A stretch of 47,351 bases of DNA from Flavobacteriales bacterium (GTDB lineage Bacteria > Bacteroidota > Bacteroidia > Flavobacteriales_G > JALEGO01): positions 1 through 47,351 of the forward strand of contig JALEGO010000161.1 in the NCBI GenBank assembly GCA_022763165.1, in the 5' to 3' direction. Positions 25,901 through 46,132 of this stretch are shown piece after piece. The notes beneath the pieces were generated by a model. The model made no database searches, had not been told where the DNA came from, and worked only from the letters and a program-made list of their open reading frames with translations. Every line of letters begins with the position of its first letter. Within the stretch, counting starts at the first letter, position 1. The translations under genes were made by a program, and so were the position numbers.

Positions 25901-26347
25901 CAATAAATTGTATGAGGATGATGTCTTAGCTTCAACCTCCTGATTATTAGACAAGAAAGCAATTTTATTTCTTAAAACCGCTCCACTTTGAACGGCGCTC
26001 ATAGCATTGCAATCAGCTGTATAGGAAATGATGAAATTCAGACTCTCAGCCGTATTTAAATTTCCGCTAACACTAAATGTAATGATCCCATTGTTTGCAT
26101 TTAACATTGAGATTCTGCCCGCATCATTGCCAGTTAAAAAGCTATAGCTAACTCCTGTTGGTAATTCTAATTCTAATGTCATGTTGGAATAATTTACAGC
26201 ACCCTCATTTTCAAGTTGCACAGCCATATTCGACTGTGCTCCAAAGAGATCCAAATTTTGATCTGGAGTCAAAGTAATGTCAACACTTTGAGCATTGATT
26301 GCTATTCCAAGTATAAATAGTAAGTATGATGTTATTAATTTCTTCAT
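19931..26347 (-). CDS. 2,138-aa T9SS-secreted FG-GAP/VCBS beta-propeller + ASPIC/UnbV adhesin-like surface protein
   Basis: Signal peptide MKKLITSYLLFILGIAINAQS. Seven DxDxDGDxD FG-GAP/VCBS calcium-loop repeats (DINNDGYEDV, DYDNDGDLDV, DFDNDGYLDL, DMDADGDLDL, DIDNDGDFDV, DFDNDGDLDL, DYDRDGDLDL; about nt 21610-22640). An ASPIC/UnbV-like segment follows (GLGAKVKVKA...FGLGNA). The C-terminal 87 aa (19934-20194) begin LVIYPNPATHKVNV, typical of a T9SS sorting domain. Confidence 0.85.
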   Translation of the reverse strand: MKKLITSYLLFILGIAINAQSVDITLTPDQNLDLFGAQSNMAVQLENEGAVNYSNMTLELELPTGVSYSFLTGNDAGRISMLNANNGIITFSVSGNLNTAESLNFIISYTADCNAMSAVQSGAVLRNKIAFLSNNQEVEAKTSSSYNLLYPALTIISVSPNQKTIQSGETFTRTIKIINGGNGRLNAFTLSDVHGTGLSWNSASIGSLSNNVLNLTGSDFNGIGNNDAFFDKNESIIITQTLEGFACQTTTISSDIEASWTDGNTTSCQVTSTTAHVTINLNTPKLSVSANDDIQSCFSINEGSLQELTLSNTGQGIAENVVLDVFNSSGNGFDPSVAVHLDHSDIEISIDNNSWNVISPQAIINGNAMACMSGNPTGKVTLSLPRIDPGNKIYLRWKTYRCCIDDCSPKKIMGWGYDVTYEDVCQTNSYQKDGIGQGVNSNTLNFFTESPTDIHDSEVEYFTYIISSLTNTIPEGQGAHYRLKFTLPQGLDWTGNPNDLTFTSGATLWSHEDLDYDPNTRILTANYFLTAPFTIPKSEVNVGLKGNCSVGASGVKWVDFDTYYIADTTCQQVCEIPMSCTESVDVYLHCPGSCTNGGIVFKSFDIKRTSLGLPDNNEDGLSDNSGGLDFSKIKLNRAMYGDTIQSTFSGVIENPNNIAWSKGYASSTFPLGVNLSAISCELKYYDASSQTYLNCNNIPVNYADNGSTRTFTYDFSLSNSCFAGVDYETGDSIILEPIYKVTGNIGGQVEEVTVNNEFYLSSVANPTNSADKYGCNTYRDRITLIGYFFGVSGNQNITISGCSKTITQDFHFSVGDCCSNYQGGNLFPFEYRSWAHLKEIETVVPMHYAIESAYIRQYRTKKTNQSATQTINPIQPYYSQSNYLKFDIESLYKENGGTFEFSDDGFSGTIYIKVAPSCDVPNNVFQSMPWTFIFNKHEHLGYGTETITTGQDNIRFKPRTLSINSQNPKIDGVEKVAKWNVALSTNGSSVDNAWVHITSPSSNINILRVVDLATGQELVKQNDIYIVGNVNSTNLQVQANYSNCSYDNIEFYAGYECSGLPNDFSSFKCSYSKVDLFIEPKPAELQAVLYGKTVGNDCSPIVEVEVEIASVQFSIVQDISLSLSTPGLDRISYQAGSAKLKYPLTGNYTSVSDPSVNNNEYTFDFNQINNRLKDRGLPGVLDLDSNRLKLKFNVILEDNFQSGDHIVNSISGYSSCGQALQNINLAFDPNIKFEEVSVAGLTGISENNWSVSWTDINNDGYEDVFLPNYSDGAPNKLMVNNGDGTFSQVQNALTNTNGGTVSGSWADYDNDGDLDVFLANNTSSVNQLYSNDGAGNFTLVNDGVITGHSGYSHAGAWGDFDNDGYLDLFVADFMPTKYNLLYKNNGDGTFTEIDNIISQEAQYSVTGHWTDMDADGDLDLLVCNTNGQANSVYRNLGNTNFEKLDNHPLALSGFNTTTSAWGDIDNDGDFDVVLCNASDQQNALFINQGNMDFSLVQNSIVSNDKGHSHTANFIDFDNDGDLDLVISNDQNQKSFFYANDGAGQFNKLDNDISRIEGDFFSNTWADYDRDGDLDLYMAEHSSGSNVFFANSKGQCLSWICMKLSGTQSNKQGLGAKVKVKAEINGGKRWITREIGTQIAGLGGQNSSRTYFGLGNATSIDSIIVQWPSGVVQSYDPAGLNTCYEIEEPVGTRLCGKIFHDENGNCVFDANENVVGQQSVQIGNSVVAANDTGLFSIYVTDGLYDVAFVEEGIWSKSCGILTINTENLNGTCDNDIAIVPSCVGVDLKLDIGVTAYRRGFRNLLTSLITNNGSQTAYNVEFILEVPAELSIVSSDSSFTVSDTTYSWFFDSLEIGKSILISMEDSVDLYADLSKTVTLSGSVESSGNECSLQDNQLAMSSEIVGAVDPNDKLVFPIGITAKGYITEVDTLHYKIRFQNVGNYPAWRVIVIDTLSENLDLNTLIIKNSSHKGRYTIDGSVVTWIFEGINLPDSVSNEPQSHGFVQFSIQPKKGLANESWVNNKAHIQFDFNDYIITNTTVNTIRNDIHLVGDRSLVIYPNPATHKVNVIGERKAFGATMNSDLVSVQVLDMNGIMVDEISINRELKTVVVSHLKTGSYILVAETKEGLLFKGKLVVSNSR

Positions 26348-26373
26348 AATATTTCTTAATTACATACCTCTTA

Positions 26374-26388
26374 ACTTAAATAGTGCCA
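26374..26388 (-). promoter_or_regulatory. sigma54-like -24 element (perfect TGGCAC) upstream of the adhesin gene; poor -12
   Basis: The minus strand reads TGGCACTATTTAAGT. The GG lies 90 nt from the first base of the palindrome at 26477, close to the 88-89 nt seen at four other units. The -12 position lacks GC, so this is tentative. Confidence 0.3.
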
Positions 26389-26443: not shown

Positions 26444-26477
26444 CTCTATTAATGAGATTATTTTCTCAAATTGAGAA
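26444..26477 (-). promoter_or_regulatory. composite operator/UAS copy 1: palindrome TTCTCAAATTGAGAA plus 19-bp extension
   Basis: Perfect 15-bp palindrome at 26463-26477. The extension reads AATAATCTCATTAATAGAG on the minus strand (26462 down to 26444), so it points toward the adhesin gene. It matches copy 4 (AAGAATCTTATTCATAGAG) at 16 of 19 positions. Confidence 0.6.
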
Positions 26478-26507: not shown

Positions 26508-27860
26508 ATGAGTATGAATAAGATATTTGTTGTAGAAGATGATAGGTTTTATGGATCCCTTTTGAAACATCATCTGGAATTGAACCCTGATAATGAGGTC
26601 GTGTTATTTGAACATGCTGGAGATTGTTTGAAAAGACTACAGGAAAAACCTATGGCTATTACACTGGACTACAGTTTACCAGGGATAAGTGGATCAGAAG
26701 CTTTGAAGGCCATAAAGAGGATCGATCCTGATATTCCAGTGATAATGATTTCTGGGCAGGAGGATGTGAAAACGGCAATTAATCTATTGAAAGATGGCGC
26801 TTATGATTATTTGCTTAAGGATGATGATACAAAGGATCGACTATGGAATGCTATGATCAATATTGGAAAACGCAAAGAATTAGAGACTAGAGTTGAGCAT
26901 CTTGAACAAGAAGTAGAGCAGAAATTTCAATTTGACAAAAGTATTATCGGCAACAGTCCAGTATTACAAGACGTTTTCCGCTTATTGAATAAAGCGGTCA
27001 AAGCACCTATTACGGTTTCGATTACTGGAGAGACTGGAACAGGTAAAGAAGTAGCAGCCAAAGCAATTCACTTTAACTCGAATAGAAAAAAGAAACCTTT
27101 CGTGCCAGTAAATATGGCTGCTATACCTTCGGAGCTTATTGAAAGTGAGTTATTTGGCTATGAGAAAGGGGCTTTCACAGGAGCAAATGCTAGAAAAATT
27201 GGAAAATTTGAGGAGGCAAATGGAGGAACAATTTTTTTGGATGAAATTGCAGAAATGCCATTACCGATGCAATCTAAGCTCTTACGAGTTTTGCAAGAAG
27301 AAGAGGTAACCAGACTCGGTGGAAATGGAACTGTAAAAATTGATGTTAGGATCATATGCGCCACCCACAGAAATTTGGCGGAGGAGGTGGAGAAAGGTAA
27401 ATTCAGAGAGGACCTTTATTATAGATTACTGGGGCTACCGATTGAATTGCCACCCCTGAGGGATAGAGACAATGACATCTTAATCCTAGCCAAGTATTTC
27501 CTTGATGCTTTTTCTAAGAAAAATAAGATGGGAGCCTTGAAACTAGATAAAATGGCCCAAGACAAATTAATGAGCTACCCGTTTCCCGGGAATATCCGAG
27601 AGTTAAAAGCATTGATTGAGTTGGCTGCCGTGATGACAGATGATAATATCATTCGAGAAGAAGACATCACATTCAGATCCAAGGATGGGGTGGGAGACAT
27701 GATGCTTAAAGAAAGATCAATGAAGGATTACTCGCGCATGATTGTGGAGCATTTTCTCAAGAAATATCATAATGATATTAAAAAAGTAGCAGCTGTTTTA
27801 GACATCGGGGTTTCCTCAATCTACAGAATGATTCAGCAGGGAGAGATTGAGTCTAAATAA
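26508..27860 (+). CDS. sigma54-dependent NtrC-family response regulator (REC + AAA+ sigma54-interaction + Fis-type HTH)
   Basis: Receiver IFVVEDD...ITLDYSLPG. Walker A GETGTGKE. Sigma54-contact loop ESELFGYEKGAFTGA (GAFTGA at nt 27168-27185). Walker B GGTIFLDEI. C-terminal HTH DIKKVAAVLDIGVSSIYRMIQQG. Confidence 0.9.
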   Translation: MSMNKIFVVEDDRFYGSLLKHHLELNPDNEVVLFEHAGDCLKRLQEKPMAITLDYSLPGISGSEALKAIKRIDPDIPVIMISGQEDVKTAINLLKDGAYDYLLKDDDTKDRLWNAMINIGKRKELETRVEHLEQEVEQKFQFDKSIIGNSPVLQDVFRLLNKAVKAPITVSITGETGTGKEVAAKAIHFNSNRKKKPFVPVNMAAIPSELIESELFGYEKGAFTGANARKIGKFEEANGGTIFLDEIAEMPLPMQSKLLRVLQEEEVTRLGGNGTVKIDVRIICATHRNLAEEVEKGKFREDLYYRLLGLPIELPPLRDRDNDILILAKYFLDAFSKKNKMGALKLDKMAQDKLMSYPFPGNIRELKALIELAAVMTDDNIIREEDITFRSKDGVGDMMLKERSMKDYSRMIVEHFLKKYHNDIKKVAAVLDIGVSSIYRMIQQGEIESK

Positions 27861-28032
27861 TGCATTGACTTGAACAATAGTTGCAGCATTTAGTTATTAA
27901 ATCAGAATTCTAAAAATTGGACAATCTGTCTCAAAACGAGAAAAACACAACGAACAACAAATTTTATATCTCTTATAATCAGATTTTTATGAATTGGGCT
28001 TGATTTGTGATACCTCCAGAATAAACAGAATT

Positions 28033-28449
28033 ATGAAAGCAAAAACAGTAAATAAAGAAATCTTTTTAGTAGATGATGACCCAATGTGTCTTGAGGTGCT
28101 AAAATATCAACTTCATGAATTGAAAGGGTACAAGATTAGTGTATTTCAATCAGCAGAAGAATGTTTAAAACAAATTCATAGAAAGCCTGAATTTATCATT
28201 CTCGATTTTAATTTAGATGGAATGATTGAAACCAATATGGATGGACACCAGGCCTTAGGTTTGATCCATAACTATAATAAAAATATCGAAGTGATTTTTA
28301 TTTCTGGAGAACACAACTTCGAATTATTAGAAGTGTATGAGAAGTTTAGATCCGTTGAATTTTTGGTGAAGGAAGGGTTTGGGTCACCTATAATTAAAGA
28401 TTATATTGAATCAAGGATTCAATCAAAATACCCAAAATATATTGCTTAA
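28033..28449 (+). CDS. stand-alone response-regulator receiver (CheY-like)
   Basis: EIFLVDDDP...FIILDFNLDG...VIFISG. The ORF-track start at 27994 is TTG; the ATG at 28033 gives MKAKTVNKEIFLVDDD. Its stop overlaps the H-NOX start (TAATG at 28447-28451). Confidence 0.8.
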   Translation: MKAKTVNKEIFLVDDDPMCLEVLKYQLHELKGYKISVFQSAEECLKQIHRKPEFIILDFNLDGMIETNMDGHQALGLIHNYNKNIEVIFISGEHNFELLEVYEKFRSVEFLVKEGFGSPIIKDYIESRIQSKYPKYIA

Positions 28450-28991
28450 TGTACGGAATTGTAAATAAGGGCGTTCAATCTTTGGTTACGGATAATTGGG
28501 GAGATGAAATGTGGTCCAATATACTTGAGGACAGCAAAATAGAAGTTGACCTTTTTCTAAGTAATGAAATATATGATGATGAGATTACATACAAGTTGGC
28601 GATAAGTGCATCCAAACTCTTGGATGTTTCTGTAGGAGATGTTTTGTATGAATTTGGAAAGCATTGGGTACTTAAAACATCAATAAAGCACTACGGTAAG
28701 TTAATGGAGTCAGGAGGAGCAAACCTTAAGGATTTCCTCATTAATTTACCCAACTTTCATAGCAGGGTCATGTTAATTTTCCCAAAGATTACTCCTCCAG
28801 AATTTAAAGTAACACAGATAGAAGAGAATTCACTTCACTTACATTACTTCTCAAAACGAGAAGGCTTGAAAGAATTTGTAAGAGGTATCGTGAAAGGGTT
28901 GGGTACGATGTTCGAAACACCTGTAGAGATTGAATTAGTGGAAGACAGAGATGCAGGAGATGATCATGAAGTATTCAAAATCACTTGGTAA
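28449..28991 (+). CDS. hnoX: H-NOX (heme nitric oxide/oxygen-binding, HNOB) sensor protein, sGC-beta/Nostoc type
   Basis: N-terminus MYGIVNKGVQSLV (compare sGC beta1 MYGFVNHALELLV and Nostoc MYGLVNKAIQDMI). IYDDEITYKL..SASKLL. Proximal His in NLPNFHSRV (His104, nt 28758-28760). Heme-propionate motif YxSxR in LHYFSKREGL (nt 28845-28859). Length 180 aa. Confidence 0.9.
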   Translation: MYGIVNKGVQSLVTDNWGDEMWSNILEDSKIEVDLFLSNEIYDDEITYKLAISASKLLDVSVGDVLYEFGKHWVLKTSIKHYGKLMESGGANLKDFLINLPNFHSRVMLIFPKITPPEFKVTQIEENSLHLHYFSKREGLKEFVRGIVKGLGTMFETPVEIELVEDRDAGDDHEVFKITW

Positions 28992-29003
28992 AATTAAAGC
29001 TTG

Positions 29004-32000
29004 ATGGCTCAGCTGAATGATCAAAACTTGGAACGTCTCTTTCCTTTTTACTTTGTTATCGATCAAAATTTAACGATTACTCGATTTGGGAGGGGACTGG
29101 AAAAACTTGCAGGAGACACCAGAGGGAAGAGTTTTGAAGAAGTATTTCAAGTTGATCGGCCTAAAAGCTTGGCATTGAAGTTTGAGGCTTTTCATGAATA
29201 TCTCAATCAGATTTTCCTCATTGAGCTTAAGAATATTCAAGGTCAAACTGTCCTTTTAAAAGGGCAATTCGTAGAAACTGATCAAAAGGAACTTTTATTT
29301 GCAGGTTCTCCCTGGCTCACTAGTGTCGAGGAAATGAGCGAAAAAGGGTTATTGATCACAGACTTTGCATTGCATGATTCCACGGCAGATCTATTGCAAA
29401 TTTTGAAAACACAGGAAATTACCAATCAAGACTTACAGGAATTAGCACATGTTCTTAAAGCCAAAACGAAAGAATTAAAAGAAGCGCAGAAAATACTGTC
29501 AGAAAATCAAAGAAAATATGTTCAGCTGGTGGAAGAAGCGAGTGATATGATATTCACTGTTGATACTGATGGGAATTGTACATATGTGAATGATATTGCC
29601 TCCAAGATCGTAGGGTATCCTATGGAAGAACTAATTGGAATGCCATTTCATCAATTGGTAAGGGAAGATTATTTACCCAAAGTGGCCAAGTTCTACACCA
29701 AGCATTTTTCGGAAAAGCTCGATACATCATATTTTGAATTTCCGATCGTGACTAAATTTCAATCTGAACTGTGGGTTGGTCAAAATGTGAAAGCACTCTT
29801 TGAAAATGGAAAAATCACGGGTTTTCATTGTATTGCTCGAGATATTTCAAAGCTAAAAATACAGGAAGAACGAATTAAAAGGTTAGCTAAATTTCCTGAT
29901 GAAAACCCAAATCCAGTTCTAAGGGCAACTTACTCGGGCGATATATTGTATCATAATCCTTCAAGTAAGTACCTTCTAAAACTTTTGGATATTAATGACT
30001 CCAATAAACTCCCTAAACCCATTTTAGACGCGATTAATCAAATATCTGAGGAACATATAGAAATACAACTAGATTTATCCAATGCTACTTTTTCTTTCTC
30101 TTTAGCAAAGATTGAGGAATTTGAATATGTGAATATATACGCTAAAGATATCACTGACTTAAAAAGAGCTTCCCAAAAAATTGATGAACAAAAGGATTTC
30201 TATGAAAGTATTTTAAATAATATTCCTTCAGATATTGTGGCTTTTGATAAGGACCATCGATATTCATTTGTTAACCCAGTAGCAGTAAAAAATGAGGAAA
30301 TCAGGAAATGGCTCATTGGTAAAAACGATTTTGAATACTGTGAATATCGCAACAAGCCAATATCTCTTGCGGAAGCTAGAAAAGCCAAATTTGAAGAAGT
30401 AAAAAAACGCAAGGAAACCATAGAATGGGAAGAAAACTTTAATGGTCAATTTCAATTGAGGAAAATGAGTCCAGTCTATGATGATAATGGTCAGTTGAAA
30501 ATGGTCATGGGTTATGGAGTGGATGTCACCAACATAAAAGAAGCCGAACAGGAAATTAAGGCCCAAGAAGAAAAATTCAGAACGGTCTTTGACCAATCGA
30601 ATGATGGAATTATCCTACATGATTTCAGAGGAGTCATATTAGATGTCAACGACAGATTGTGTGAAATGCTAGATTATTCAAAGAAGGAGATTCTTGCGCT
30701 AAACATCCTGGATTTACATCCATCCTCTGAACTCAAAAAATCAGAAGAATCATTTCTTCGCATCGCTCAGAAAGGTTATGATAATTTCGAAATCTTATTC
30801 AAAAAAGCAAATAGATCAGCCATAGAAGCTGAGGTATCGGCAAGTATCATTGAGATTAAAGGAAAGAAATATATTCAAGGAACCATTCGTGACATTACGC
30901 TACGGAAGTCTACGGAAAGACAGATGATTGAAGCGAAAGATTTGGCTGAAAATGCAGTCAAAGCCAGAGAAAACTTTTTGGCCAACATGAGCCATGAGAT
31001 ACGCACACCAATGAATGCCATTTTAGGTATGAGCAAATTATTGCAAAGTGATAAAAACACTGAAAAAGAGGCACGTTATCTCAAAAGCATTAGAGGGTCA
31101 GCCCAGAATCTACTAGTCATCATCAACGACATTCTTGATTTTTCTAAAATAGATTCTGGTAAATTGGAATTTGAAAATGTAGGTTTCAAAATCAAAGACC
31201 TCGTTAGTCAGGTGGTGTCTACAAATGAATACCGCGTGACAGAGAAAGATATCGTTTTAAAAATGGAGTTTGATGCCGCTATTGATGATCAATTGGTGTG
31301 CTTGGGGGATCCAACTCGACTAACGCAAATTCTTACAAACTTAATCGGAAATGCAGTAAAATTCACCGAGAAAGGAGAAGTGTTGATTTTAGTGGATGTA
31401 CTTGAAAATACGGGTACCAATATACAGTTGCGTTTCACCGTTCATGACACCGGTATTGGTATTCCAGAAAGTAAAATTGACAAGATTTTTGAAGGGTTCA
31501 GCCAAGCAGATTCTAGCACAACAAGAAGGTATGGTGGAACGGGCTTGGGACTCTCTATCACTCGCAAATTGATCTTGCTCCAAGGTGGTGGAATTCGCGT
31601 ACACAGTGTAGAAGGTCAGGGTTCTGATTTCATTGTGAGGTTAGGATACCAAATAGGTTCAGGAAACGATTTGCCATCAGATCATCATAAGGAAATAGTT
31701 GCGGATTTGTCTGGCATGAAAGTCTTGTTGGTAGAAGACAATAAAATAAATCAATTCTTTGCAACAAGCTTAATGGAACCCTGGGGATTAAAAATCTCCA
31801 TTGCAAACAATGGTAAAGAGGCTGTTGAACTTGTTGGGAAAGAGTCTTTTGACCTCATTCTAATGGATATTCAAATGCCAGTAATGGATGGAATGGAAGC
31901 AACAAAAAAGATTCGAGATGAGTTGAAGATCAAAACACCGATTATCGCATTGACAGCCAATGCGATCAAAGGTGATGAAGAAAAGTATTTAGCCATCGGA

Positions 32001-32486
32001 ATGGATGATTATTTGTCTAAACCTTTTGAAGCAGAAGATCTAAATCAGAAAATCACCAAGTATATGAGCAAGTTGTCAGAAACACATGTTGAGAATGATG
32101 CTCTATTTGTTGAAATAGATTCTGAATTACAACCGCTGTTCGATTTAACCAAGTTGAAGAAACAAGCTACTGGAAACATGGTTTTTGTGAATAAGATGGT
32201 GAAGCTGTTTTTAGAAGAAACCCCTCCCTCCCTAAAAACTCTAGAATTATCTTTGAAAGAAGGTAATTGGGAAAGGGTCAAGGCTATCGTTCATAAAATG
32301 AAACCTTCCTTTAAGATTTTGGGAATCAAACATTGGGAGGATCAAATGCCTGTTCTTGAAAAATGGGCAGATCAAATGTCTGAAGAGAATAAAGAGGGTG
32401 AACTCATAGAATCCATTCAAGACTTGTTAAAGCAAATGCCTTACGTTTTACAGCAGATGAAGGATTACTTAGAGTCTCAAAACTGA
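29004..32486 (+). CDS. hybrid sensor histidine kinase: HNOBA + multiple PAS + HisKA + HATPase + REC + Hpt
   Basis: The ATG at 29004 follows the TTG at 29001. The N-terminal ~160 aa (about 29030-29500) resemble the sGC H-NOX-associated (HNOBA) domain: LFPFYFVIDQNLTITRFGRGLEKL..., LLKGQF, LLFAGSPW, GLLITDFALHDSTADLL (sGC beta1: FPFHIIFDRDLVVTQCG, LKGQM, ILFLCSPS, GLYLSDIPLHDATRDLV). About four PAS-like modules follow. H-box FLANMSHEIRTPMNAILG (His at 30993-30995). N/G boxes NLIGNAVKFT and DTGIGI..GGTGLGL. Receiver KVLLVEDN..DLILMDIQMPVMDG (Asp at 31866-31868). Hpt AIVHKMKPSFKILG (His at 32292-32294). Confidence 0.9.
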   Translation: MAQLNDQNLERLFPFYFVIDQNLTITRFGRGLEKLAGDTRGKSFEEVFQVDRPKSLALKFEAFHEYLNQIFLIELKNIQGQTVLLKGQFVETDQKELLFAGSPWLTSVEEMSEKGLLITDFALHDSTADLLQILKTQEITNQDLQELAHVLKAKTKELKEAQKILSENQRKYVQLVEEASDMIFTVDTDGNCTYVNDIASKIVGYPMEELIGMPFHQLVREDYLPKVAKFYTKHFSEKLDTSYFEFPIVTKFQSELWVGQNVKALFENGKITGFHCIARDISKLKIQEERIKRLAKFPDENPNPVLRATYSGDILYHNPSSKYLLKLLDINDSNKLPKPILDAINQISEEHIEIQLDLSNATFSFSLAKIEEFEYVNIYAKDITDLKRASQKIDEQKDFYESILNNIPSDIVAFDKDHRYSFVNPVAVKNEEIRKWLIGKNDFEYCEYRNKPISLAEARKAKFEEVKKRKETIEWEENFNGQFQLRKMSPVYDDNGQLKMVMGYGVDVTNIKEAEQEIKAQEEKFRTVFDQSNDGIILHDFRGVILDVNDRLCEMLDYSKKEILALNILDLHPSSELKKSEESFLRIAQKGYDNFEILFKKANRSAIEAEVSASIIEIKGKKYIQGTIRDITLRKSTERQMIEAKDLAENAVKARENFLANMSHEIRTPMNAILGMSKLLQSDKNTEKEARYLKSIRGSAQNLLVIINDILDFSKIDSGKLEFENVGFKIKDLVSQVVSTNEYRVTEKDIVLKMEFDAAIDDQLVCLGDPTRLTQILTNLIGNAVKFTEKGEVLILVDVLENTGTNIQLRFTVHDTGIGIPESKIDKIFEGFSQADSSTTRRYGGTGLGLSITRKLILLQGGGIRVHSVEGQGSDFIVRLGYQIGSGNDLPSDHHKEIVADLSGMKVLLVEDNKINQFFATSLMEPWGLKISIANNGKEAVELVGKESFDLILMDIQMPVMDGMEATKKIRDELKIKTPIIALTANAIKGDEEKYLAIGMDDYLSKPFEAEDLNQKITKYMSKLSETHVENDALFVEIDSELQPLFDLTKLKKQATGNMVFVNKMVKLFLEETPPSLKTLELSLKEGNWERVKAIVHKMKPSFKILGIKHWEDQMPVLEKWADQMSEENKEGELIESIQDLLKQMPYVLQQMKDYLESQN

Positions 32487-32543: not shown

Positions 32544-32577
32544 CTCTCAAATTGAGAATCTAGTCTATTTCATAGAA
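32544..32577 (+). promoter_or_regulatory. composite operator/UAS copy 3: CTCTCAAATTGAGAA plus extension
   Basis: 13 of 15 central bases form a perfect palindrome. The extension TCTAGTCTATTTCATAGAA shares the invariant positions A19, C22, T23, T30, G32 and A33 with the other copies. Confidence 0.6.
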
Positions 32578-32630: not shown

Positions 32631-32646
32631 GGGCACCAATTTGGCA
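32631..32646 (+). promoter_or_regulatory. candidate sigma54 promoter (-24/-12) for the REC-wza-wzc operon
   Basis: GGGCACCAATTTGGCA compared with the consensus TGGCACG-N4-TTGCW. GGCAC is present, the -12 GC has the correct 10-nt spacing, and there is one mismatch in TTGC. The GG lies 88 nt from the palindrome start. The ATG at 32668 is about 22 nt downstream. Confidence 0.5.
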
Positions 32647-32667: not shown

Positions 32668-33159
32668 ATGTTTATGGAAAAGTCAAAAGTATTTATAGTT
32701 GAAGATGACCCATTTTACAGAGAAATGGTAGTCAATGAATTATCAAAAGACAAGAGCCTTGTTTTGGAGTCCTTTGACAATGGAACGGATTTTAAGAATA
32801 ATTTATACAAAAATCCGGATGTCGTTTTGATGGATTATGGTTTAGAGGATTCAGATGGATTAGCATTATTGAGAGAAATAAAAGGATTAAATCCAAACAT
32901 TGAGGTGATCTTTCTGTCAGCTCAGGAGAAGTTACAGGTAGCGATAAATTCACTGAAGTACGGAGCATTCGACTACATCACTAAAAATGATGCTGCCTTA
33001 TCTCGTTTATTGCCAACCATTAATCGAATTTTCACCATTAAGAATGCTCTATTGACTCAAAAACAATTTAAGCGATTCAAAATTGGAGCCATCGTCTTTT
33101 TTGCTGTACTAATTAGTCTTCTCGCTGCCATCGAAGTAGTAAAACCTGAATTATTGTAA
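32668..33159 (+). CDS. membrane tail-anchored response-regulator receiver (REC + single C-terminal TM helix)
   Basis: VFIVEDDP...VVLMDYGLEDSDG (Asp56, nt 32833-32835)...VIFLSA...K..AFDYITK. Then IGAIVFFAVLISLLAAIEVV (aa 139-158, nt 33082-33141) and only 5 more residues. There is no output domain. It is the first gene of the export operon. Confidence 0.8.
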   Translation: MFMEKSKVFIVEDDPFYREMVVNELSKDKSLVLESFDNGTDFKNNLYKNPDVVLMDYGLEDSDGLALLREIKGLNPNIEVIFLSAQEKLQVAINSLKYGAFDYITKNDAALSRLLPTINRIFTIKNALLTQKQFKRFKIGAIVFFAVLISLLAAIEVVKPELL

Positions 33160-33160
33160 A

Positions 33161-33883
33161 ATGAGATATTTATTCTACATAGTTATTCTATTCTGTGCTT
33201 CAGGTTGTGCCTATCAAAACATGATGCAAACACAAAGTGCTAGACCTATCTCAGATTTGAATTATGATTCTGCTTATTATCAAATCCGAAAAGATGATAA
33301 GATCAGTTTGAGCGTATGGAACCATGATGATCTGAGCATCGGATCTCTTTATGGTATTTATAATTCAAATGAGGTATACGGCAAGTGGGTTCTTGTGGAT
33401 GAAGCTGGAGAAGTAACTTTACCCAGAATCGGCTCCGTTAAAATTGAAGGTTTAAGCATCAAAGAAGCAGAAGACACGATCGTAAAAAGGCTCGCCAACC
33501 TAATTGTTGATCCAATCGTGAAACTTAAGGTCTTAAACCGGTCTGTTACAGTTTTGGGTGAAGTCAGGAACCCCGGAAGCTTTCCTTTGGAAAAAGAGAA
33601 ACATTATTTGCTGGAGATCATTGGCAAGAGCGGAGGCTTGGAATTTTATGCGGATAAAAGTTCTGTCAAACTGGTGCGACTATCAAAGGATGGCCCTGTA
33701 GAATATCAAATTGATTTAACTAAAGGAGAAGAGCTAGCCAAAACAAATGTGTTGTTGCAAAATGGAGATGTGATTTACGTGCCTACTCGAAAAGGAAAAA
33801 ATCTCGATAAAAAAGCCCCAACCTTAATTCCCTTCACTAGTGTCGTTACTGCTATTGTATTAGTCTTAACAGTTGTAAAATAA
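33161..33883 (+). CDS. wza: polysaccharide export outer-membrane protein (Wza-like; Poly_export + SLBB)
   Basis: Lipoprotein-type signal LFCASGC. Poly_export-like YQIRKDDKISLSVW and GEVTLPRIGSVKIEGLSIKEAE. SLBB-like VTVLGEVRNPGSFPL and NGDVIYVP. Confidence 0.8.
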   Translation: MRYLFYIVILFCASGCAYQNMMQTQSARPISDLNYDSAYYQIRKDDKISLSVWNHDDLSIGSLYGIYNSNEVYGKWVLVDEAGEVTLPRIGSVKIEGLSIKEAEDTIVKRLANLIVDPIVKLKVLNRSVTVLGEVRNPGSFPLEKEKHYLLEIIGKSGGLEFYADKSSVKLVRLSKDGPVEYQIDLTKGEELAKTNVLLQNGDVIYVPTRKGKNLDKKAPTLIPFTSVVTAIVLVLTVVK

Positions 33884-36186
33884 TGAATGATTCACAAAAT
33901 ATTAAACGGCTACTTTTACCACTTTTAAAAGGAATTCCATTTCTGGCTATTCTTTTGGTTGTGGCACTTTTTGCAGCTTATCGTTATGCAAAAATCATGG
34001 TCCCTAAGTACCAGTCCATCACTAAAATTAAGTTAGACCATACCGATCATGGAATATCAAGTTCCAATCTCTATAAGGATTTTGATGTCTTTGCGCACGT
34101 CAACAAGGTAAAGGCAGAGGAAGAATTACTCACCTCCAATGTGCTCATCAAGAAGGCTATACAAGCTCTAGGAAGCAATATTAAGGTCTTTCGCATTGGA
34201 GAGTTCAGAAAATCAGAGTTGTACGATGAGTCACCCATCATCATCCAATTTGACACTTGCCCTGTGAATTTCTATAACAAAGAAATCTATGTAGAAATTT
34301 TAGATGAAGAATACTTCAGCATATCTGAGCTCAAAGCTAAAAACGGACAGCGTTGTCAATTCGGTGAGGAAATCTTTTTATCAGGGGCAAAGTTGAGAAT
34401 TGTACTAAACCGAGATTTAATTGATGGAAGAGCCGACTTCCACTTACAAGATTTGTATTCATTCAAAATTCAAAATGAAATGTCTCAAGTTGCGGACATA
34501 AAGTCCAGGTTGGATGTGCAAGCCGTTGATAAAGATGTGGCTGTATTGAGATTGGTTTATGAAGATGAAGTGCCTACAAGAGCTGCTGAGTTCGTGAATA
34601 CTTTGGCTGAAGCATACATTAAAGATTATGTAGAACACAGAACCGAATCAGCTTCCATAACAGTTGATTTTATTGATTCTCAATTAGATGCTGTAAAGTC
34701 TAAATTACGGAAATCAGAAAGTAGAATAGAATCTTACCGACTAGATAAAAACATCATCAACACTCGCCAAGAAACTGAAACCGATTTAAGAAAAATATCA
34801 CAACTAAAAATTCAACTGGCCAACCTTGAAATGAATCAGGCTGCATTGGATTCTCTTGTATTTTATATTCAATCGGAGCAGGTAGACTTTTTGAATAAGG
34901 CACCAAATTTTGAAGCATTCAATGATTTGCTTTCAACAGAATTGGTGAAACAAATCAAAGCTGCTAGAGCCGAAAAAAGAGAAGTGCTTTTAAAGTATAC
35001 GCCAGGATCGGATGAGGTACAACTTGTCGAACAGAAAATTCAGGATCTGGTGAATTACTTAAAAGAAAGCATTAACAATACGCGTAAAAACATAAGGATC
35101 AAAAGAAAGCAAATTGACAATGCCATTATCGCTTCAGAAAAGGTTTTTGAAGGTTTACCAACAAAAGAAAAGGAAATGATGATCATGGAAAGAGACTTCC
35201 AACTGAACCAAAAAGTATACAACTTCTTAACCGAAAAAAGAACAGAAGCGGCTATTGTGGCGAATGCTAATATGGCCTTTCATAGAATCATCGAAAAAGC
35301 AGAAATTCCGAAAGAATCTGTAACAATTAAGTCTACCTTTTTGATGGTTCTTAGTGGATTCTTAGCATTAGTATTTGGTATCGCAATCATCTACTTAAAA
35401 GAATATGTGAAAGGAACCGTAAACTCAAGAGATCAAATTGAGCAGGGTTCGACTGTTCCGGTAGCAGGAATCATTAAGAAGAATGGTAGTGACCAAGAGG
35501 GACATTTCATCGACTTGGCTTCCAGTTTGTATCTAAAGAAAAAAGTAAACGATTCATTGAAAATCGCACTTACCTCTTCTATTTCAGGAGAAGGAAAATC
35601 ATACGTTACAGCGCATTTAGGAAAAGCTTTTGCGAAATTAGGATATCGTACCCTATTGATAGACTTCAATAGTTATAGTCCTAGTTTGCACAGAAAATTT
35701 GAAGTACAAAACACAATTGATTTACGACTTATTAATGAAGAATCAGTTGATAAAAATGAACTGATAACAAATATTTCTGAGCATCTCGATTTGATAACCA
35801 ATCAGGGTGGGCAGAATATCAATGGAGGTATTTTACATCATAAAAGATTTGCTTCAAATTTTGAGGTTATTGTTCAGGACTATGACATTGTGATCATTGA
35901 TACGCCTGCCAGTGCGTTATCACCTGATGCCATGGCTTTAATGCAAAAGGCTGATTTGAGTTTGTATTTATTCAAAGCTGGATATACGAGAAAGCAATAT
36001 TTATTAAATCCAGACCTTATTGCTGAGGAATATGGCATAAACAACATGATGACCTTGCTTAATGGGGCACATAAAGCAATGAATTTCAATGGAAATTATA
36101 CAGGCAGTTCGTACTCCTATAAATTGAAGAATGAGAACCTCAAAGGTCGTATTTCAAGATATATCAGATCATATATAAAGGCATGA
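33883..36186 (+). CDS. wzc: Wzc/GumC-type polysaccharide co-polymerase with a C-terminal BY-kinase-like P-loop domain
   Basis: Two TM helices flank a long coiled periplasmic Wzz-like region. Walker A SSISGEGKSYV. Walker B YDIVIIDTPA. C-terminal Tyr-rich tail NGNYTGSSYSYKL...RYIRSYIKA (about 36088-36183). TAATG overlap with wza. Confidence 0.8.
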   Translation: MNDSQNIKRLLLPLLKGIPFLAILLVVALFAAYRYAKIMVPKYQSITKIKLDHTDHGISSSNLYKDFDVFAHVNKVKAEEELLTSNVLIKKAIQALGSNIKVFRIGEFRKSELYDESPIIIQFDTCPVNFYNKEIYVEILDEEYFSISELKAKNGQRCQFGEEIFLSGAKLRIVLNRDLIDGRADFHLQDLYSFKIQNEMSQVADIKSRLDVQAVDKDVAVLRLVYEDEVPTRAAEFVNTLAEAYIKDYVEHRTESASITVDFIDSQLDAVKSKLRKSESRIESYRLDKNIINTRQETETDLRKISQLKIQLANLEMNQAALDSLVFYIQSEQVDFLNKAPNFEAFNDLLSTELVKQIKAARAEKREVLLKYTPGSDEVQLVEQKIQDLVNYLKESINNTRKNIRIKRKQIDNAIIASEKVFEGLPTKEKEMMIMERDFQLNQKVYNFLTEKRTEAAIVANANMAFHRIIEKAEIPKESVTIKSTFLMVLSGFLALVFGIAIIYLKEYVKGTVNSRDQIEQGSTVPVAGIIKKNGSDQEGHFIDLASSLYLKKKVNDSLKIALTSSISGEGKSYVTAHLGKAFAKLGYRTLLIDFNSYSPSLHRKFEVQNTIDLRLINEESVDKNELITNISEHLDLITNQGGQNINGGILHHKRFASNFEVIVQDYDIVIIDTPASALSPDAMALMQKADLSLYLFKAGYTRKQYLLNPDLIAEEYGINNMMTLLNGAHKAMNFNGNYTGSSYSYKLKNENLKGRISRYIRSYIKA

Positions 36187-38560: not shown

Positions 38561-38581
38561 ATATTCAATTTTATCATTCTC

Positions 38582-39900: not shown

Positions 39901-39934
39901 TTCTCAAAATGAGAAAAGAATCTTATTCATAGAG
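39901..39934 (+). promoter_or_regulatory. composite operator/UAS copy 4: TTCTCAAAATGAGAA plus extension
   Basis: One mismatch to the palindrome. The extension AAGAATCTTATTCATAGAG is itself an imperfect dyad (TCTTAT..ATAGA). A further CTCAACTGAGAA dyad lies at 39940-39951. Confidence 0.6.
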
Positions 39935-39987
39935 AAACCCTCAACTGAGAATTTCCTAACCACTTGTTTTACAAGACGTTATAATCT

Positions 39988-40003
39988 TGGCGTCCTTTTC
40001 GCT
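39988..40003 (+). promoter_or_regulatory. candidate sigma54 promoter for the three-domain kinase gene
   Basis: TGGCGTCCTTTTCGCT: TGGC..N..CGCT with GG and GC at canonical spacing. The GG lies exactly 88 nt from the palindrome start, the same as copy 3. The ATG at 40025 is 22 nt downstream. Confidence 0.45.
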
Positions 40004-42673: not shown

Positions 42674-42692
42674 TACATAATACAAGAGAATC

Positions 42693-43433: not shown

Positions 43434-43467
43434 TTCTCAATTTGAGAAAGCAATCTTAAAAATGGAA
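43434..43467 (+). promoter_or_regulatory. composite operator/UAS copy 5: TTCTCAATTTGAGAA plus extension
   Basis: Perfect palindrome with centre T. Extension AGCAATCTTAAAAATGGAA. Confidence 0.55.
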
Positions 43468-43521
43468 TAATCTTTAAAGCTGAAAGACCACAAGGATCAA
43501 TAAATCAATTACTTGCGGAAA

Positions 43522-43537
43522 AGGCACGCTTATTTCA
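43522..43537 (+). promoter_or_regulatory. sigma54-like element (good -24, atypical -12 TTTC)
   Basis: AGGCACGCTTATTTCA. GGCACG is perfect, but the -12 reads TTTC instead of TTGC. The GG lies 89 nt from the palindrome start. It is only about 12 nt before the ATG at 43549, so the leader would be very short. Confidence 0.3.
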
Positions 43538-44814: not shown

Positions 44815-44831
44815 GGATAGCAGCAGCAATC

Positions 44832-44846
44832 ATTTCAATTTGAGTA
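44832..44846 (+). promoter_or_regulatory. degenerate copy of the palindrome (ATTTCAATTTGAGTA)
   Basis: Three mismatches to TTCTCAATTTGAGAA. A second dyad, TCAAATTGA, lies at 44850-44858. A GGAAC-N5-AAAC element begins 87 nt downstream (44919). Weak. Confidence 0.25.
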
Positions 44847-44941
44847 AGATCAAATTGAAGAATTGTCACGAATAGCCCGACCCCAATCTGAGTTGATCTG
44901 AAAACTTGGTAGATTGGGGGAACGCCCAAAACAAGAATAAA

Positions 44942-46078: not shown

Positions 46079-46132
46079 AATCAAATAGGCAGCCCCTTAT
46101 ATAACAACATGTAAGTCAAGTAATTAAATGTT

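What the first reader, a model, noticed from the sequence alone, without database searches (positions are those of the whole stretch)
28033..32486. sGC-like H-NOX heme sensor plus HNOBA-containing hybrid histidine kinase embedded in a Bacteroidota EPS locus
Seen in sequence: the 180-aa protein at 28449-28991 has the H-NOX hallmarks: MYGxVN start, proximal His104 in NLPNFHSRV, and YxSxR as Y133/S135/R137. It aligns by eye along its length with the sGC beta1 and Nostoc H-NOX domains. The position matching sGC Ile145 (and, in turn, the O2-stabilising distal Tyr of Thermoanaerobacter H-NOX) appears to be Phe143. That would predict NO rather than O2 selectivity. The next gene, 12 nt later, starts with a domain resembling the sGC H-NOX-associated (HNOBA) PAS-like domain. 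It continues through about four PAS modules into HisKA-HATPase-REC-Hpt. Established knowledge: H-NOX proteins control partner kinases or cyclases. In Shewanella and Vibrio the H-NOX/HnoK system feeds several receivers that tune c-di-GMP and biofilm. HNOB/HNOBA gene pairs were first noted in cyanobacteria. Inference: this window contains no GGDEF, EAL or HD-GYP domain. Instead the sensor pair is flanked by a sigma54 activator and capsule/EPS export genes. This suggests an NO (or other diatomic gas) -> phosphorelay -> sigma54 -> matrix production pathway that bypasses c-di-GMP.
Basis: partly seen in the sequence, partly recalled or inferred. Interest (0 to 1): 0.8.

Follow-up and report, generated by a model that had tools for sequence, protein, structure and literature searches.

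The report
H-NOX sensor wired to EPS locus
A Bacteroidota gene cluster for surface polysaccharide and a giant adhesin carries its own nitric-oxide-type heme sensor, kinase and sigma-54 switch; every part is a known kind and the same logic is already proven in Vibrio fischeri, but this compact version, including an apparent swap of the sensor cassette, has not been studied.

Summary
The 28449-28991 protein is a full-length H-NOX (PF07700, E=7.6e-48; 40% identical to Nostoc H-NOX). It has His104 and Y133/S135/R137 and lacks the distal H-bond triad. The next gene encodes HNOBA-PAS-HisKA-HATPase-REC-Hpt. No c-di-GMP domain occurs in the window.

In related Bacteroidota loci the sensor pair sits next to either a sigma-54 or a LytTR regulator, never both (15 vs 31 of 53). 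In the window, a palindrome (TTCTCAA-N-TTGAGAA) precedes five transcription units of the EPS/adhesin locus. Each copy is followed 74-76 nt later by a -24/-12-like element. Operator type co-varies with the regulator's recognition helix. Two loci chosen only for that helix (L086, L087) share the operator and the whole locus backbone, but carry a different H-NOX lineage and a kinase without HNOBA. That suggests a sensor-cassette swap.

The logic (NO, H-NOX, kinase, sigma-54 activator, EPS) is already established in Vibrio fischeri (HnoX-HahK-SypG-syp). This is therefore a new variant of a known kind. Heme binding, ligand, sign of regulation and phosphotransfer remain untested.

The parts
19931..26347 (-). 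Giant secreted surface protein (2138 aa): FG-GAP repeats, UnbV_ASPIC, DUF11, DUF7619 and a T9SS C-terminal sorting domain. Putative regulon member, divergent from the sigma-54 regulator gene.
   Evidence: Pfam. Orthologs at 45-46% identity over 99% of length occupy the same position in L086 and L087.
26373..26388 (-). -24/-12-like element TGGCACtatttAAGTT facing the adhesin gene, with its GG 76 nt from the palindrome. The -12 part is weak.
26464..26476 (.). Operator palindrome TCTCAAATTGAGA (exact) in the adhesin|sigma54RR gap.
26508..27860 (+). Sigma-54-dependent response regulator (REC-AAA+-HTH, 450 aa): Asp54, Walker A at 174, GAFTGA 221-226, Walker B at 243, recognition helix LDIGVSSIYRM.
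   Evidence: Pfam PF00158 E=6.6e-72. Motifs. HTH comparison.
27929..27941 (.). Degenerate operator copy TCTCAAAACGAGA (2 mismatches) upstream of REC1/H-NOX. No recognisable -24/-12 element follows it.
   Evidence: The homologous gap in L086 and L087 holds an exact and a 1-mismatch copy.
28033..28449 (+). REC1, a single-domain receiver (138 aa from the ATG; a TTG at 27994 is also possible). Its stop overlaps the H-NOX start (TAATG).
   Evidence: Pfam. Junction. No ortholog in 85 related loci.
28449..28991 (+). H-NOX heme sensor of the sGC/Nostoc type (180 aa).
29001..32486 (+). Hybrid histidine kinase: HNOBA(PAS+coiled coil)-PAS modules-HisKA(His665)-HATPase-REC(Asp956)-Hpt(His1098).
32545..32557 (.). 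Operator palindrome (exact) upstream of the REC-TM/Wza operon, followed about 20 bp later by a second TCT-N8-AGA half-site pair.
32631..32646 (+). -24/-12 element GGGCACcaattTGGCA (GG-N10-GC), 74 nt after the palindrome and 21 nt before the ATG. It is the only exact GGCAC-N5-TKGCW match in the window.
32668..33159 (+). REC-TM: a receiver domain with a C-terminal membrane anchor (about 139-157). First gene of the export operon.
   Evidence: Pfam. Hydropathy. Anchored orthologs in L086 and L087; soluble ones in L051, L075 and L022.
33161..39865 (+). Wza-like exporter, Wzc-like co-polymerase/tyrosine kinase, flippase, GT4 and Wzy-like polymerase. Tightly packed genes, apparently one operon with REC-TM.
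   Evidence: Pfam. Junction.
39902..40003 (+). Operator TCTCAAAATGAGA (1 mismatch) plus TGGCGTcctttTCGCT (GG-N10-GC) 74 nt later.
40025..43409 (+). APH-like/thymidylate-kinase-like protein (882 aa) and a hexapeptide acyltransferase.
   Evidence: Pfam. The same pair occurs in L051.
43435..43537 (+). Operator (exact) plus AGGCACgcttaTTTCA 75 nt later. The likely true start of the GT1 gene is the ATG at 43549.
43549..46042 (+). Two GT1-family glycosyltransferases, with a degenerate operator copy between them at 44833.
46046..46148 (+). Operator (exact) plus TGGAATgatctTTTCA 75 nt later.
46171..47351 (+). DUF1972/GT1 glycosyltransferase that runs off the end of the window.

Best explanation
This is a self-contained gas-sensing phosphorelay built into the gene cluster it controls.

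Sensor and relay:
- The 180-aa H-NOX binds heme through His104, with the propionates held by Y133/S135/R137.
- Its apolar distal pocket (V9, W73, F143) suggests it senses NO, or possibly CO, rather than O2.
- It is co-translated with, and acts in trans on, the HNOBA (PAS plus coiled-coil) N-terminus of the neighbouring hybrid kinase. This is the same H-NOX/PAS/coiled-coil module that soluble guanylate cyclase uses in cis.
- The kinase autophosphorylates on His665 and relays phosphate via Asp956 and Hpt His1098.
- The proposed acceptor is Asp54 of the adjacent sigma-54 enhancer-binding regulator. The single-domain receivers REC1 and membrane-anchored REC-TM probably act as branch points or phosphate sinks.

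Output:
- The phosphorylated regulator is proposed to bind tandem TTCTCAA-N-TTGAGAA operators and activate -24/-12 promoters about 75 nt downstream.
- The genes downstream are the T9SS giant adhesin, the REC-TM-Wza-Wzc-flippase-GT-Wzy operon, and three further EPS biosynthesis units.
- The gas signal would thus set production of surface matrix.

Shown: domain content, catalytic residues, synteny, the operator/promoter grammar and the helix/operator co-variation.

Inferred: heme and NO binding, the H-NOX-kinase contact, phosphotransfer specificity, that the palindrome is bound by this regulator, and sigma-54 dependence.

The sign is unknown. All characterised H-NOX/kinase pairs are inhibited by NO (my own knowledge of the family, not tested here), which would make NO turn matrix off.
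For: Sensor and kinase:
- Domain and residue evidence.
- W73, H104, Y133, S135, R137 and F143 are invariant in 18 Bacteroidota homologs.
- An HNOBA gene lies immediately downstream of H-NOX in 79 of 80 species-representative loci.
- Genes are translationally coupled.

Link to the regulator:
- Outputs are mutually exclusive: 15 sigma-54 only, 31 LytTR only, 0 both.

Operator and promoter in the window:
- Palindrome: 17 matches at up to 2 mismatches versus 4.3 expected, with 0 of 100 shuffles reaching that.
- The five best copies all lie in the 3.1% of the window that is intergenic (P about 3e-8).
- GG-N10-[GT][CT] sits at offset 74-76 in 5 of 5 sites, against a background of 0.06 per site (P about 8e-7; pattern defined post hoc). 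Alignment A3.

Related loci:
- Sigma-54-class loci use TTCCA-W5-TGGAA instead: 23 exact copies in 21 such loci and 0 in 59 loci without the regulator.
- These operators often occur in tandem 18-20 bp apart and are followed by TGGYAY-N5-TTGNT.

Co-variation:
- Most of the 21 regulators in TTCCA-operator loci have the helix GKSTIYKM. A few differ slightly (L051, L075, L080); none has the window's helix.
- The window has GVSSIYRM.
- The only two other GVSSIYRM proteins among the 120 best hits lie in loci with the window-type operator, no TTCCA operator, and the same adhesin-regulator-H-NOX-kinase-REC-TM-Wza-Wzc-flippase-GT4-Wzy backbone.
- Three regulators with other helices lie in unrelated contexts.

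EPS link:
- In L051, EPS genes flank the sensor module on both sides.

Precedent:
- V. fischeri NO/HnoX-HahK-SypG-syp.
Against: - No experiment supports any step. rpoN is not in the window.
- Only 2 of the 5 window promoters have a canonical GG-N10-GC. The others have TC or GT at -12.
- The degenerate operator before the REC1/H-NOX operon has no recognisable -24/-12 element.
- In L087 the gap before REC has tandem operators but no GG at all downstream.
- The offset pattern was defined after looking at the data.
- The sigma-54 regulator belongs to a very large family (at least 7998 hits at E<=1e-60), many of them orphans in unrelated contexts. Adjacency alone is therefore weak evidence.
- The EPS-embedded arrangement is rare: 2 of 57 evaluable loci of this H-NOX lineage.
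- The closest H-NOX relatives (67% identity) pair with a LytTR regulator.
- Several PAS modules lie between HNOBA and the kinase core, so other signals may dominate.
Confidence: 0.62

Rival explanations
1. The sensor pair and the EPS regulon are neighbours but not one pathway. The H-NOX/kinase pair signals only to REC1 and/or REC-TM, or to a distant regulator. The sigma-54 regulator would then be phosphorylated by a different kinase.
For: - The regulator family is huge and often orphan.
- The window holds three candidate receivers besides the regulator.
- The closest H-NOX relatives use a LytTR regulator, and the window has a LytTR regulator at 12299-13045.
Against: - Sigma-54 and LytTR neighbours are mutually exclusive across 53 loci.
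- The regulator-H-NOX-kinase order is conserved across two H-NOX lineages.
- Operator copies sit in front of the H-NOX operon itself in most sigma-54-class loci.
- The window's LytTR regulator overlaps its own PF06580 kinase gene 16 kb away.
Confidence: 0.15
2. The palindromes are not enhancer sites for the sigma-54 regulator. They could be operators of another transcription factor, or weak RNA hairpins/terminators after genes, with the downstream promoters of the ordinary Bacteroidota sigma-A type.
For: - Several copies lie just after stop codons (for example, 46046 starts 4 nt after the stop).
- They can form 5-10 bp hairpins of -3.6 to -8 kcal/mol.
- Three of the five -12 elements are non-canonical.
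- The L087 REC gap lacks any GG.
Against: - The hairpins are weak and AT-rich, and the terminator scan did not flag them.
- Spacing to a GG element is fixed at 74-76 nt, in the direction of the next gene, at 5 of 5 sites.
- The related TTCCA operator occurs strictly with the regulator: 23 copies versus 0.
- Helix/operator co-variation was predicted and then met in L086 and L087.
- Tandem sites two helical turns apart are typical of enhancer-binding proteins (the comparison rests on my knowledge of the family).
Confidence: 0.13
3. The H-NOX does not report NO. It would sense CO, the cellular redox state or heme availability, or O2 weakly, so the locus would respond to oxygen or redox conditions and not to NO.
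For: - The closest solved relative, Nostoc H-NOX, has been crystallised with both NO and CO bound (my own knowledge of the entries listed).
- V. cholerae H-NOX can act as a heme-free redox sensor (PMC7108781 abstract).
- No NO-metabolism gene is present in the window.
Against: - The distal pocket lacks all three H-bond residues that stabilise O2 in Tt H-NOX.
- The heme-ligating His and the YxSxR motif are invariant in the clade.
- Characterised H-NOX proteins with an apolar pocket are NO sensors (established knowledge).
Confidence: 0.2

Closest known systems
Cyanobacterial H-NOX / HNOBA-histidine-kinase gene pair (Nostoc sp. PCC 7120 Alr2278 H-NOX; Nostoc punctiforme kinase H-NOXA domain, PDB 2P04)
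   Same: - Stand-alone sGC-like H-NOX (40% identity, full length, E=4e-42).
- It is followed by a kinase whose N-terminus is an HNOBA/PAS domain (E=4e-13 to 2P04).
- Same heme ligands and an apolar distal pocket.
   Different: - Different phylum.
- Here the kinase is a hybrid with REC and Hpt.
- The pair is embedded, together with a sigma-54 regulator, in an EPS/adhesin locus.
- To my knowledge the physiological output of the cyanobacterial pair is not established.
Vibrio fischeri HnoX-HahK -> SypF(Hpt)/LuxU -> SypG (sigma-54 activator) -> syp polysaccharide locus
   Same: - An NO-type H-NOX encoded next to a kinase.
- A phosphorelay through an Hpt domain to a REC-AAA+-HTH sigma-54 activator.
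- The activator binds an enhancer upstream of several operons of an EPS locus.
- An additional REC protein (SypE) is encoded in the locus (PMC12369376, PMC8738867).
   Different: - In V. fischeri, hnoX-hahK is unlinked to syp and signals through a separate hybrid kinase.
- Here the sensor, the relay (its own REC-Hpt), the regulator and the targets are contiguous.
- HahK is not reported to carry HNOBA, and the H-NOX there is the classical proteobacterial type.
- Orthology of the EPS genes to syp genes was not tested.
- A T9SS adhesin appears to be co-regulated here.
Shewanella oneidensis / Vibrio cholerae HnoX-HnoK multi-receiver network (HnoB, HnoC, HnoD)
   Same: One H-NOX-controlled kinase with several receiver proteins encoded nearby, controlling biofilm.
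   Different: - The outputs there are c-di-GMP enzymes (EAL, degenerate HD-GYP) and a transcription factor.
- No such domain occurs in this window.
- The kinase there has no HNOBA.
Vibrio harveyi/parahaemolyticus H-NOX-HqsK -> LuxU -> LuxO
   Same: An H-NOX-regulated kinase feeding, through an Hpt, a sigma-54-dependent REC-AAA+ regulator (PMC6759604; LuxO role from PMC12369376).
   Different: The output there is a quorum-sensing small RNA, not an EPS locus. The components are dispersed, and the Hpt is a separate protein.
Animal soluble guanylate cyclase (H-NOX-PAS/HNOBA-coiled coil-cyclase)
   Same: - The same sensor module: H-NOX 35% identical to human beta1.
- Kinase residues 12-176 align to alpha1 PAS plus coiled coil (E=1e-15).
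   Different: - The module is split over two proteins.
- The output is a histidine kinase reached through further PAS modules, not a cyclase.

Membership tests
H-NOX (HNOB, PF07700) | Full-length match to the family profile above the curated threshold | tested here: met
   162.9 bits versus a cut-off of 25.5; model positions 1-162 of 163. E=4e-42 to Nostoc H-NOX structures.
H-NOX (HNOB, PF07700) | Proximal heme-ligating His and the YxSxR propionate-binding motif | tested here: met
   H104 and Y133/S135/R137 align with H105 and Y135/S137/R139 of sGC beta1. They are invariant in alignments A1 and A2.
H-NOX (HNOB, PF07700) | Binds heme b and forms an Fe(II)-NO complex | not testable with these tools
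   Needs expression and UV-vis spectroscopy.
NO-selective (non-O2-binding) H-NOX subclass | Absence of the distal Trp9/Asn74/Tyr140 (Tt numbering) hydrogen-bond network | tested here: met
   V9, W73 and F143 occupy those columns.
HNOBA-containing sensor kinase partnered with H-NOX (Nostoc type) | HNOBA (PF07701) PAS plus coiled coil at the N-terminus of the kinase | tested here: met
   92.8 bits (102.6 on the isolated N-terminus) versus a cut-off of 23.4, with model coverage to position 204 of 216. Hits to 2P04 and to sGC alpha1/beta1.
HNOBA-containing sensor kinase partnered with H-NOX (Nostoc type) | The gene lies immediately next to a stand-alone H-NOX gene, and the pairing is conserved | tested here: met
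   A 9-12 nt gap. The pairing holds in 79 of 80 species-representative loci.
HNOBA-containing sensor kinase partnered with H-NOX (Nostoc type) | Intact kinase and phosphorelay residues | tested here: met
   His665, N/G1/G2 boxes, Asp956 and Hpt His1098.
HNOBA-containing sensor kinase partnered with H-NOX (Nostoc type) | Kinase activity modulated by the ligation state of H-NOX | not testable with these tools
   Needs an in vitro autophosphorylation assay.
Sigma-54 enhancer-binding response regulator (NtrC class) | REC with a phospho-acceptor Asp, an AAA+ domain with GAFTGA, and a C-terminal HTH | tested here: met
   PF00158 E=6.6e-72; Asp54, GAFTGA 221-226, Walker A and B. The HTH appears only as a weak PF12728 match. 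No NCBIfam equivalog reaches its cut-off.
Sigma-54 enhancer-dependent regulon (Syp-like logic) | Repeated enhancer (UAS) upstream of several operons of the locus | tested here: met
   Five intergenic palindromes with 0-1 mismatch; enrichment and position statistics. Co-variation with the recognition helix.
Sigma-54 enhancer-dependent regulon (Syp-like logic) | -24 GG / -12 GC promoter downstream of each enhancer | tested here: inconclusive
   A GG is present at a fixed offset at 5 of 5 sites, but a canonical GC at -12 at only 2 of 5. Related loci show TGGYAY-N5-TTGNT. L087 lacks one before REC.
Sigma-54 enhancer-dependent regulon (Syp-like logic) | Transcription depends on rpoN and on the regulator | not testable with these tools
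   rpoN is not in the window. Needs mutants or transcription start site mapping.
V. fischeri syp locus (orthology) | Structural and regulatory genes orthologous to sypA-R | not tested
   Only functional analogy is claimed. No comparison with syp sequences was made.
HnoX/HnoK c-di-GMP network (Shewanella/Vibrio) | Receiver proteins with EAL, HD-GYP or GGDEF output domains | tested here: not met
   No such domain in any gene of the window. The rest of the genome was not seen.

The most novel reading that the evidence does not exclude
Two evolutionarily distant H-NOX sensor cassettes are interchangeable inputs to one conserved sigma-54/EPS/T9SS-adhesin regulon. One is the sGC-type H-NOX with an HNOBA kinase (window, L051, L075). 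The other is the classical Shewanella/Kordia-type H-NOX with an HNOBA-less kinase (L086, L087). In the window, the sGC-type cassette would have replaced the classical one on a Flammeovirgaceae-like backbone. If so, the HNOBA kinase is controlled in trans through the same PAS/coiled-coil mechanism as soluble guanylate cyclase, possibly with NO activating rather than inhibiting. The locus would then be a minimal bacterial model of sGC signal transmission with a transcriptional read-out.
Probability: 0.3. Interest if true: 0.72.

Novelty: new variant of a known kind. Interest (0 to 1): 0.55.

Why it matters
- In the searchable library I found no paper that characterises an H-NOX pathway in Bacteroidota. 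Only 6 papers mention both terms, and the one I read names the phylum only in a list of phyla.
- To my knowledge no physiological output is known for any sGC-like H-NOX/HNOBA kinase pair, including the Nostoc proteins used as structural models of sGC.
- This locus offers a complete, compact and testable circuit: sensor, kinase, regulator, a predicted 15-bp operator, predicted promoters, and visible outputs (polysaccharide and a giant adhesin).
- The natural cassette swap between two H-NOX lineages on the same backbone is a ready-made comparison for how H-NOX proteins talk to kinases.
- It also extends the NO-controls-matrix theme, via sigma-54 rather than c-di-GMP, from Vibrio to an abundant environmental phylum.

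Tried and rejected
- The sigma-70 promoter and intrinsic terminator scan of 26.3-46.3 kb was at background level (77 found vs 67.5 expected; 11 vs 11.2), so it says nothing here.
- A loose TGGCAC-N5-TTGCW search with 2 mismatches was not enriched over the whole window (31 vs 20.7; 2 of 100 shuffles reach it). Promoter calls therefore rest on position relative to the palindrome, not on motif counts.
- The exact window palindrome is absent from the first 80 loci. This led to the discovery of the alternative TTCCA-N5-TGGAA operator rather than to a dead end.
- A strict regex for -24/-12 after TTCCA operators caught only some sites. Reading the sequences was needed.
- NCBIfam gave no equivalog-level name for any of the five proteins.
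- Iyer et al. 2003, the founding HNOB/HNOBA paper, could not be retrieved. Statements about it rest on my own knowledge and on PMC1592074 and PMC2828450.
- I considered and rejected the idea that the REC membrane anchor is unique to the window. It is absent from the L051/L075/L022 orthologs but present in L086 and L087.
- The LytTR regulator at 12299-13045 is unlikely to be the kinase's partner, because it overlaps its own kinase gene.
- No structure prediction, representative-library search or metagenome scan was run. Sequence-level matches to solved structures were already decisive, and the organism has no close relatives in the databases (best H-NOX hit 67% identity).

Full report
**1. The observation**

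The 180-aa product of 28449-28991 matches Pfam HNOB (PF07700) over essentially the whole model (E=7.6e-48). Its best solved relatives are the Nostoc sp. Alr2278 H-NOX (E=4e-42, residues 1-179) and human sGC beta1 (E=1e-31). Thermoanaerobacter and Kordia H-NOX score only about 1e-6.

I verified my recalled Tt H-NOX and sGC beta1 sequences as identical to PDB 1U4H and 5MNW and aligned them with the window protein. The results:
- H104 is the proximal His.
- Y133/S135/R137 is the YxSxR motif.
- F143 sits in the column of sGC Ile145, Ns Met144 and Tt Tyr140.
- V9 and W73 replace Tt Trp9 and Asn74.

These residues are invariant in 18 Bacteroidota homologs.

The next gene starts at TTG 29001 or ATG 29004, the latter 12 nt after the H-NOX stop. 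It encodes:
- HNOBA (E=2.8e-26; 2.8e-29 on the isolated N-terminus, reaching model position 204 of 216).
- PAS modules: two confident, one marginal, and one PAS-sized stretch without a Pfam hit.
- HisKA, HATPase, REC and Hpt.

Its first 180 residues hit the PAS plus coiled-coil region of sGC alpha1 and the H-NOXA domain of the Nostoc punctiforme kinase (2P04). His665, the N/G1/G2 boxes, Asp956 and Hpt His1098 are all present.

None of the plausible genes in the window has a GGDEF, EAL or HD-GYP domain.

**2. Surroundings**

- Upstream is a REC-AAA+-HTH sigma-54 activator with Asp54, GAFTGA and Walker motifs.
- Next comes a single-domain receiver, REC1, whose stop codon overlaps the H-NOX start (TAATG).
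- Downstream of the kinase is a receiver with a C-terminal membrane anchor (REC-TM). One nucleotide later come Wza, Wzc, flippase, GT4 and Wzy genes.
- After those come an APH/thymidylate-kinase-like protein, an acyltransferase and three glycosyltransferases.
- Divergent from the regulator gene is a 2138-aa protein with FG-GAP, UnbV, DUF11 and DUF7619 domains and a T9SS sorting domain.

**3. Who else has it**

The H-NOX has 1585 database relatives at E<=1e-10. None is more than 67% identical, and many are annotated 'heme NO-binding domain-containing protein' from Flavobacterium, Saprospiraceae and other Bacteroidota. In a species-representative genome set, 363 genomes encode a relative. The best 80 loci are essentially all Bacteroidota.

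In 79 of these 80 loci an HNOBA gene directly follows H-NOX. The sGC-like pair is therefore a common, already-annotated Bacteroidota module.

The output varies. Of 53 loci evaluable on both sides:
- 15 have the sigma-54 regulator upstream.
- 31 have a REC-LytTR regulator downstream.
- None has both, and 7 have neither (domain checks).

This mutual exclusivity is the best available evidence that the neighbouring regulator is the kinase's cognate output.

The EPS block follows the module in only 2 of 57 evaluable loci (L051, L075). In L051 the same EPS gene set (APH/Tmk-like, hexapeptide transferase, GT1, DUF1972, then REC-Wza-Wzc-flippase-GT4-Wzy) lies on both sides of the sensor module.

**4. 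A regulon grammar in the window**

The palindrome TCTCAA-N-TTGAGA (15 bp with its flanking T and A) occurs at these positions:
- Exactly at 26464, 32545, 43435 and 46046.
- With one mismatch at 39902.
- Degenerately, in intergenic gaps, at 27929 and 44833.

That is 17 matches at up to 2 mismatches against 4.3 expected, with 0 of 100 shuffles reaching it. The five best copies all fall in the 3.1% of the window that is intergenic (P about 3e-8).

Each of the five is followed, 74-76 nt after its end and in the direction of the next gene, by a GG-N10-[GT][CT] element. The start codon follows 15-25 nt later:

| Downstream gene | Element |
|---|---|
| Adhesin (minus strand) | TGGCACtatttAAGTT |
| REC-TM/Wza | GGGCACcaattTGGCA |
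| APH/Tmk-like | TGGCGTcctttTCGCT |
| GT1 | AGGCACgcttaTTTCA |
| DUF1972 GT | TGGAATgatctTTTCA |

The background for such an element at that offset is 0.06 per site, so 5 of 5 has P about 8e-7. The pattern was defined post hoc. Only two of the five have the canonical GC at -12.

The alignment of the five regions shows a second TCT-N8-AGA half-site pair about 20 bp after the first.

**5. The same grammar elsewhere, with a different operator**

Loci with the sigma-54 regulator carry TTCCA-W5-TGGAA instead: 23 exact copies in 21 such loci (363 kb), none in 59 loci without the regulator (860 kb), and none in the window.

The copies sit at recurrent places: upstream of the regulator gene, upstream of the (FIST-)H-NOX operon, and upstream of the REC gene after the kinase. 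They are often in tandem 18-20 bp apart. They are followed by an IHF-like TTGATWATCAA element and then TGGYAY-N5-TTGNT close to the start codon (the IHF consensus is recalled from memory).

In most of these 21 regulators the recognition helix reads LDIGKSTIYKM. A few differ slightly (L051, L075, L080), and none has the window's helix. The window's reads LDIGVSSIYRM.

**6. A prediction that was met**

Among the 120 best database relatives of the regulator, only two (P0181, P0225) share LDIGVSSIYRM. I fetched their contigs, L086 (a Flammeovirgaceae MAG) and L087.
- Both have the window-type operator in the regulator|H-NOX gap: exact in L086 and one mismatch in L087.
- Neither has a TTCCA operator.
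- GG-N10-GC elements lie 74 and 58 nt downstream.
- Both have the same backbone: giant FG-GAP/DUF7619 protein (45-46% identity over 99% of length), regulator (62%), H-NOX, hybrid kinase, membrane-anchored REC (43-46%), Wza (49-53%), Wzc (44-45%), flippase, GT4 and Wzy.

Three regulators with other helices (P0124, P0126, P0172) lie in unrelated contexts. Helix and operator thus co-vary across 24 loci. This argues that this regulator reads the palindrome.

As evidence against, the L087 gap before REC has tandem operators but no GG downstream.

**7. A sensor-cassette swap**

In L086 and L087 the H-NOX is only 25-26% identical to the window's. It belongs to the Shewanella woodyi / Kordia type (6OCV 5e-41, 6BDE 1e-40).

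The kinase there has no HNOBA. Even so, its core is 42% identical to window residues 505-1161, and its residues 63-196 match window residues 292-425.

Conversely, L051 and L075 share the window's H-NOX type (58-60%) but have more distant backbone genes.

The window therefore combines an L086-like backbone with the sGC-type H-NOX/HNOBA cassette. Whichever way the exchange went, two H-NOX lineages occupy the same slot of the same regulon. This strengthens the functional link between H-NOX sensing and this locus.

**8. Mechanism**

The most likely mechanism is this. NO, or another diatomic ligand, binds the H-NOX. The H-NOX changes the activity of the HNOBA kinase in trans. Phosphate flows His665 to Asp956 to His1098 to Asp54 of the sigma-54 activator. 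The activator binds the tandem palindromes and opens -24/-12 promoters of the adhesin gene and the EPS operons. REC1 and REC-TM are likely branch or sink receivers.

The sign is unknown. Characterised H-NOX/kinase pairs are inhibited by NO, whereas sGC is activated (my own knowledge of the families, not tested here).

I put about 0.6 on the whole chain. The sensor-kinase identity is more certain (about 0.9). The regulator-operator-EPS link is about 0.7.

**9. Comparison with what is known**

- The gene pair itself is the known cyanobacterial HNOB/HNOBA arrangement (2P04; PMC2828450; PMC1592074).
- The pathway logic is known from Vibrio fischeri. There, NO-bound HnoX inhibits HahK, which signals via SypF and/or LuxU to the sigma-54 activator SypG. 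SypG binds a syp enhancer and turns on the syp polysaccharide locus. The REC protein SypE acts post-transcriptionally (PMC12369376; PMC8738867).
- Sigma-54 control of EPS genes is a general theme (PMC3162934).

What is new here:
- The phylum.
- The use of the sGC-like HNOBA pair.
- The physical integration of sensor, relay, regulator and targets in one locus.
- The co-regulated T9SS adhesin.
- The explicit operator/promoter grammar.
- The cassette swap.

Only 6 papers in the library mention both H-NOX and Bacteroidetes. The one I read only lists the phylum among those that have H-NOX.

**10. Verdict**

- 'Bypass of c-di-GMP' cannot be tested from this window.
- Novelty: a new variant of a known kind. 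Interest: moderate (0.55).

Noticed in passing
window 4882-12231 (-): A 2449-aa protein with DUF6443 and RHS repeats, which looks like a polymorphic toxin or contact-dependent effector. Its neighbouring small ORFs were not examined.
   Followed up: no
window 40025-42673 (+); L051 517-2838: An 882-aa protein combining an APH-like kinase fold with a thymidylate-kinase-like P-loop domain sits inside the EPS cluster, with its own operator and promoter. A 773-aa counterpart lies in the L051 EPS cluster. Its role in polysaccharide synthesis is unknown.
   Followed up: partly
L039 8838-9977 and 11 other sigma-54-class loci: A FIST-domain protein is encoded between the sigma-54 regulator and H-NOX in 12 of 21 sigma-54-class loci, downstream of the operator. 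It may be a second sensory input to the same operon. The window has REC1 in that slot instead.
   Followed up: partly
window 28033-28449 (+): REC1, translationally coupled to H-NOX, has an unusually long loop after the phospho-acceptor Asp (ILDFNLDGMIETNMDGH) and no ortholog in 85 related loci.
   Followed up: partly
L022, L036, L043, L051, L068, L075, L077, L078 intergenic regions; window about 32598-32611: A palindromic TTGATWATCAA element (containing WATCAA-N4-TTR, IHF-like by recalled consensus) lies between the operator and the -24/-12 element in many sigma-54-class loci. The window's REC-TM promoter region has TATCAAacaaTTA at the same relative place.
   Followed up: partly
L017 7220-9891 and 10001-13021: A Saprospiraceae MAG appears to carry two tandem copies of a 180-aa ORF followed by a kinase, possibly a duplicated H-NOX/kinase pair. 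The first copy was not checked against Pfam.
   Followed up: no
L015, L004 and other Flavobacterium loci: A third wiring occurs in Flavobacterium: REC, H-NOX, an HNOBA-PAS kinase without REC, a separate Hpt protein, and REC-LytTR. In contrast, the window's closest H-NOX relatives (L081-L085) have a hybrid kinase followed directly by REC-LytTR.
   Followed up: partly
window 12299-15128 (-) and 16424-18373 (+): The window holds a LytTR response regulator overlapping a PF06580 kinase gene, plus a separate TPR-PF06580 kinase. These look like ordinary Bacteroidota two-component systems unrelated to the finding.
   Followed up: no
window 43513 and 44906: The mechanical TTG starts of the two GT1 ORFs overlap or come too close to the predicted promoter elements. 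ATG 43549 and ATG 44942 are more plausible starts.
   Followed up: partly
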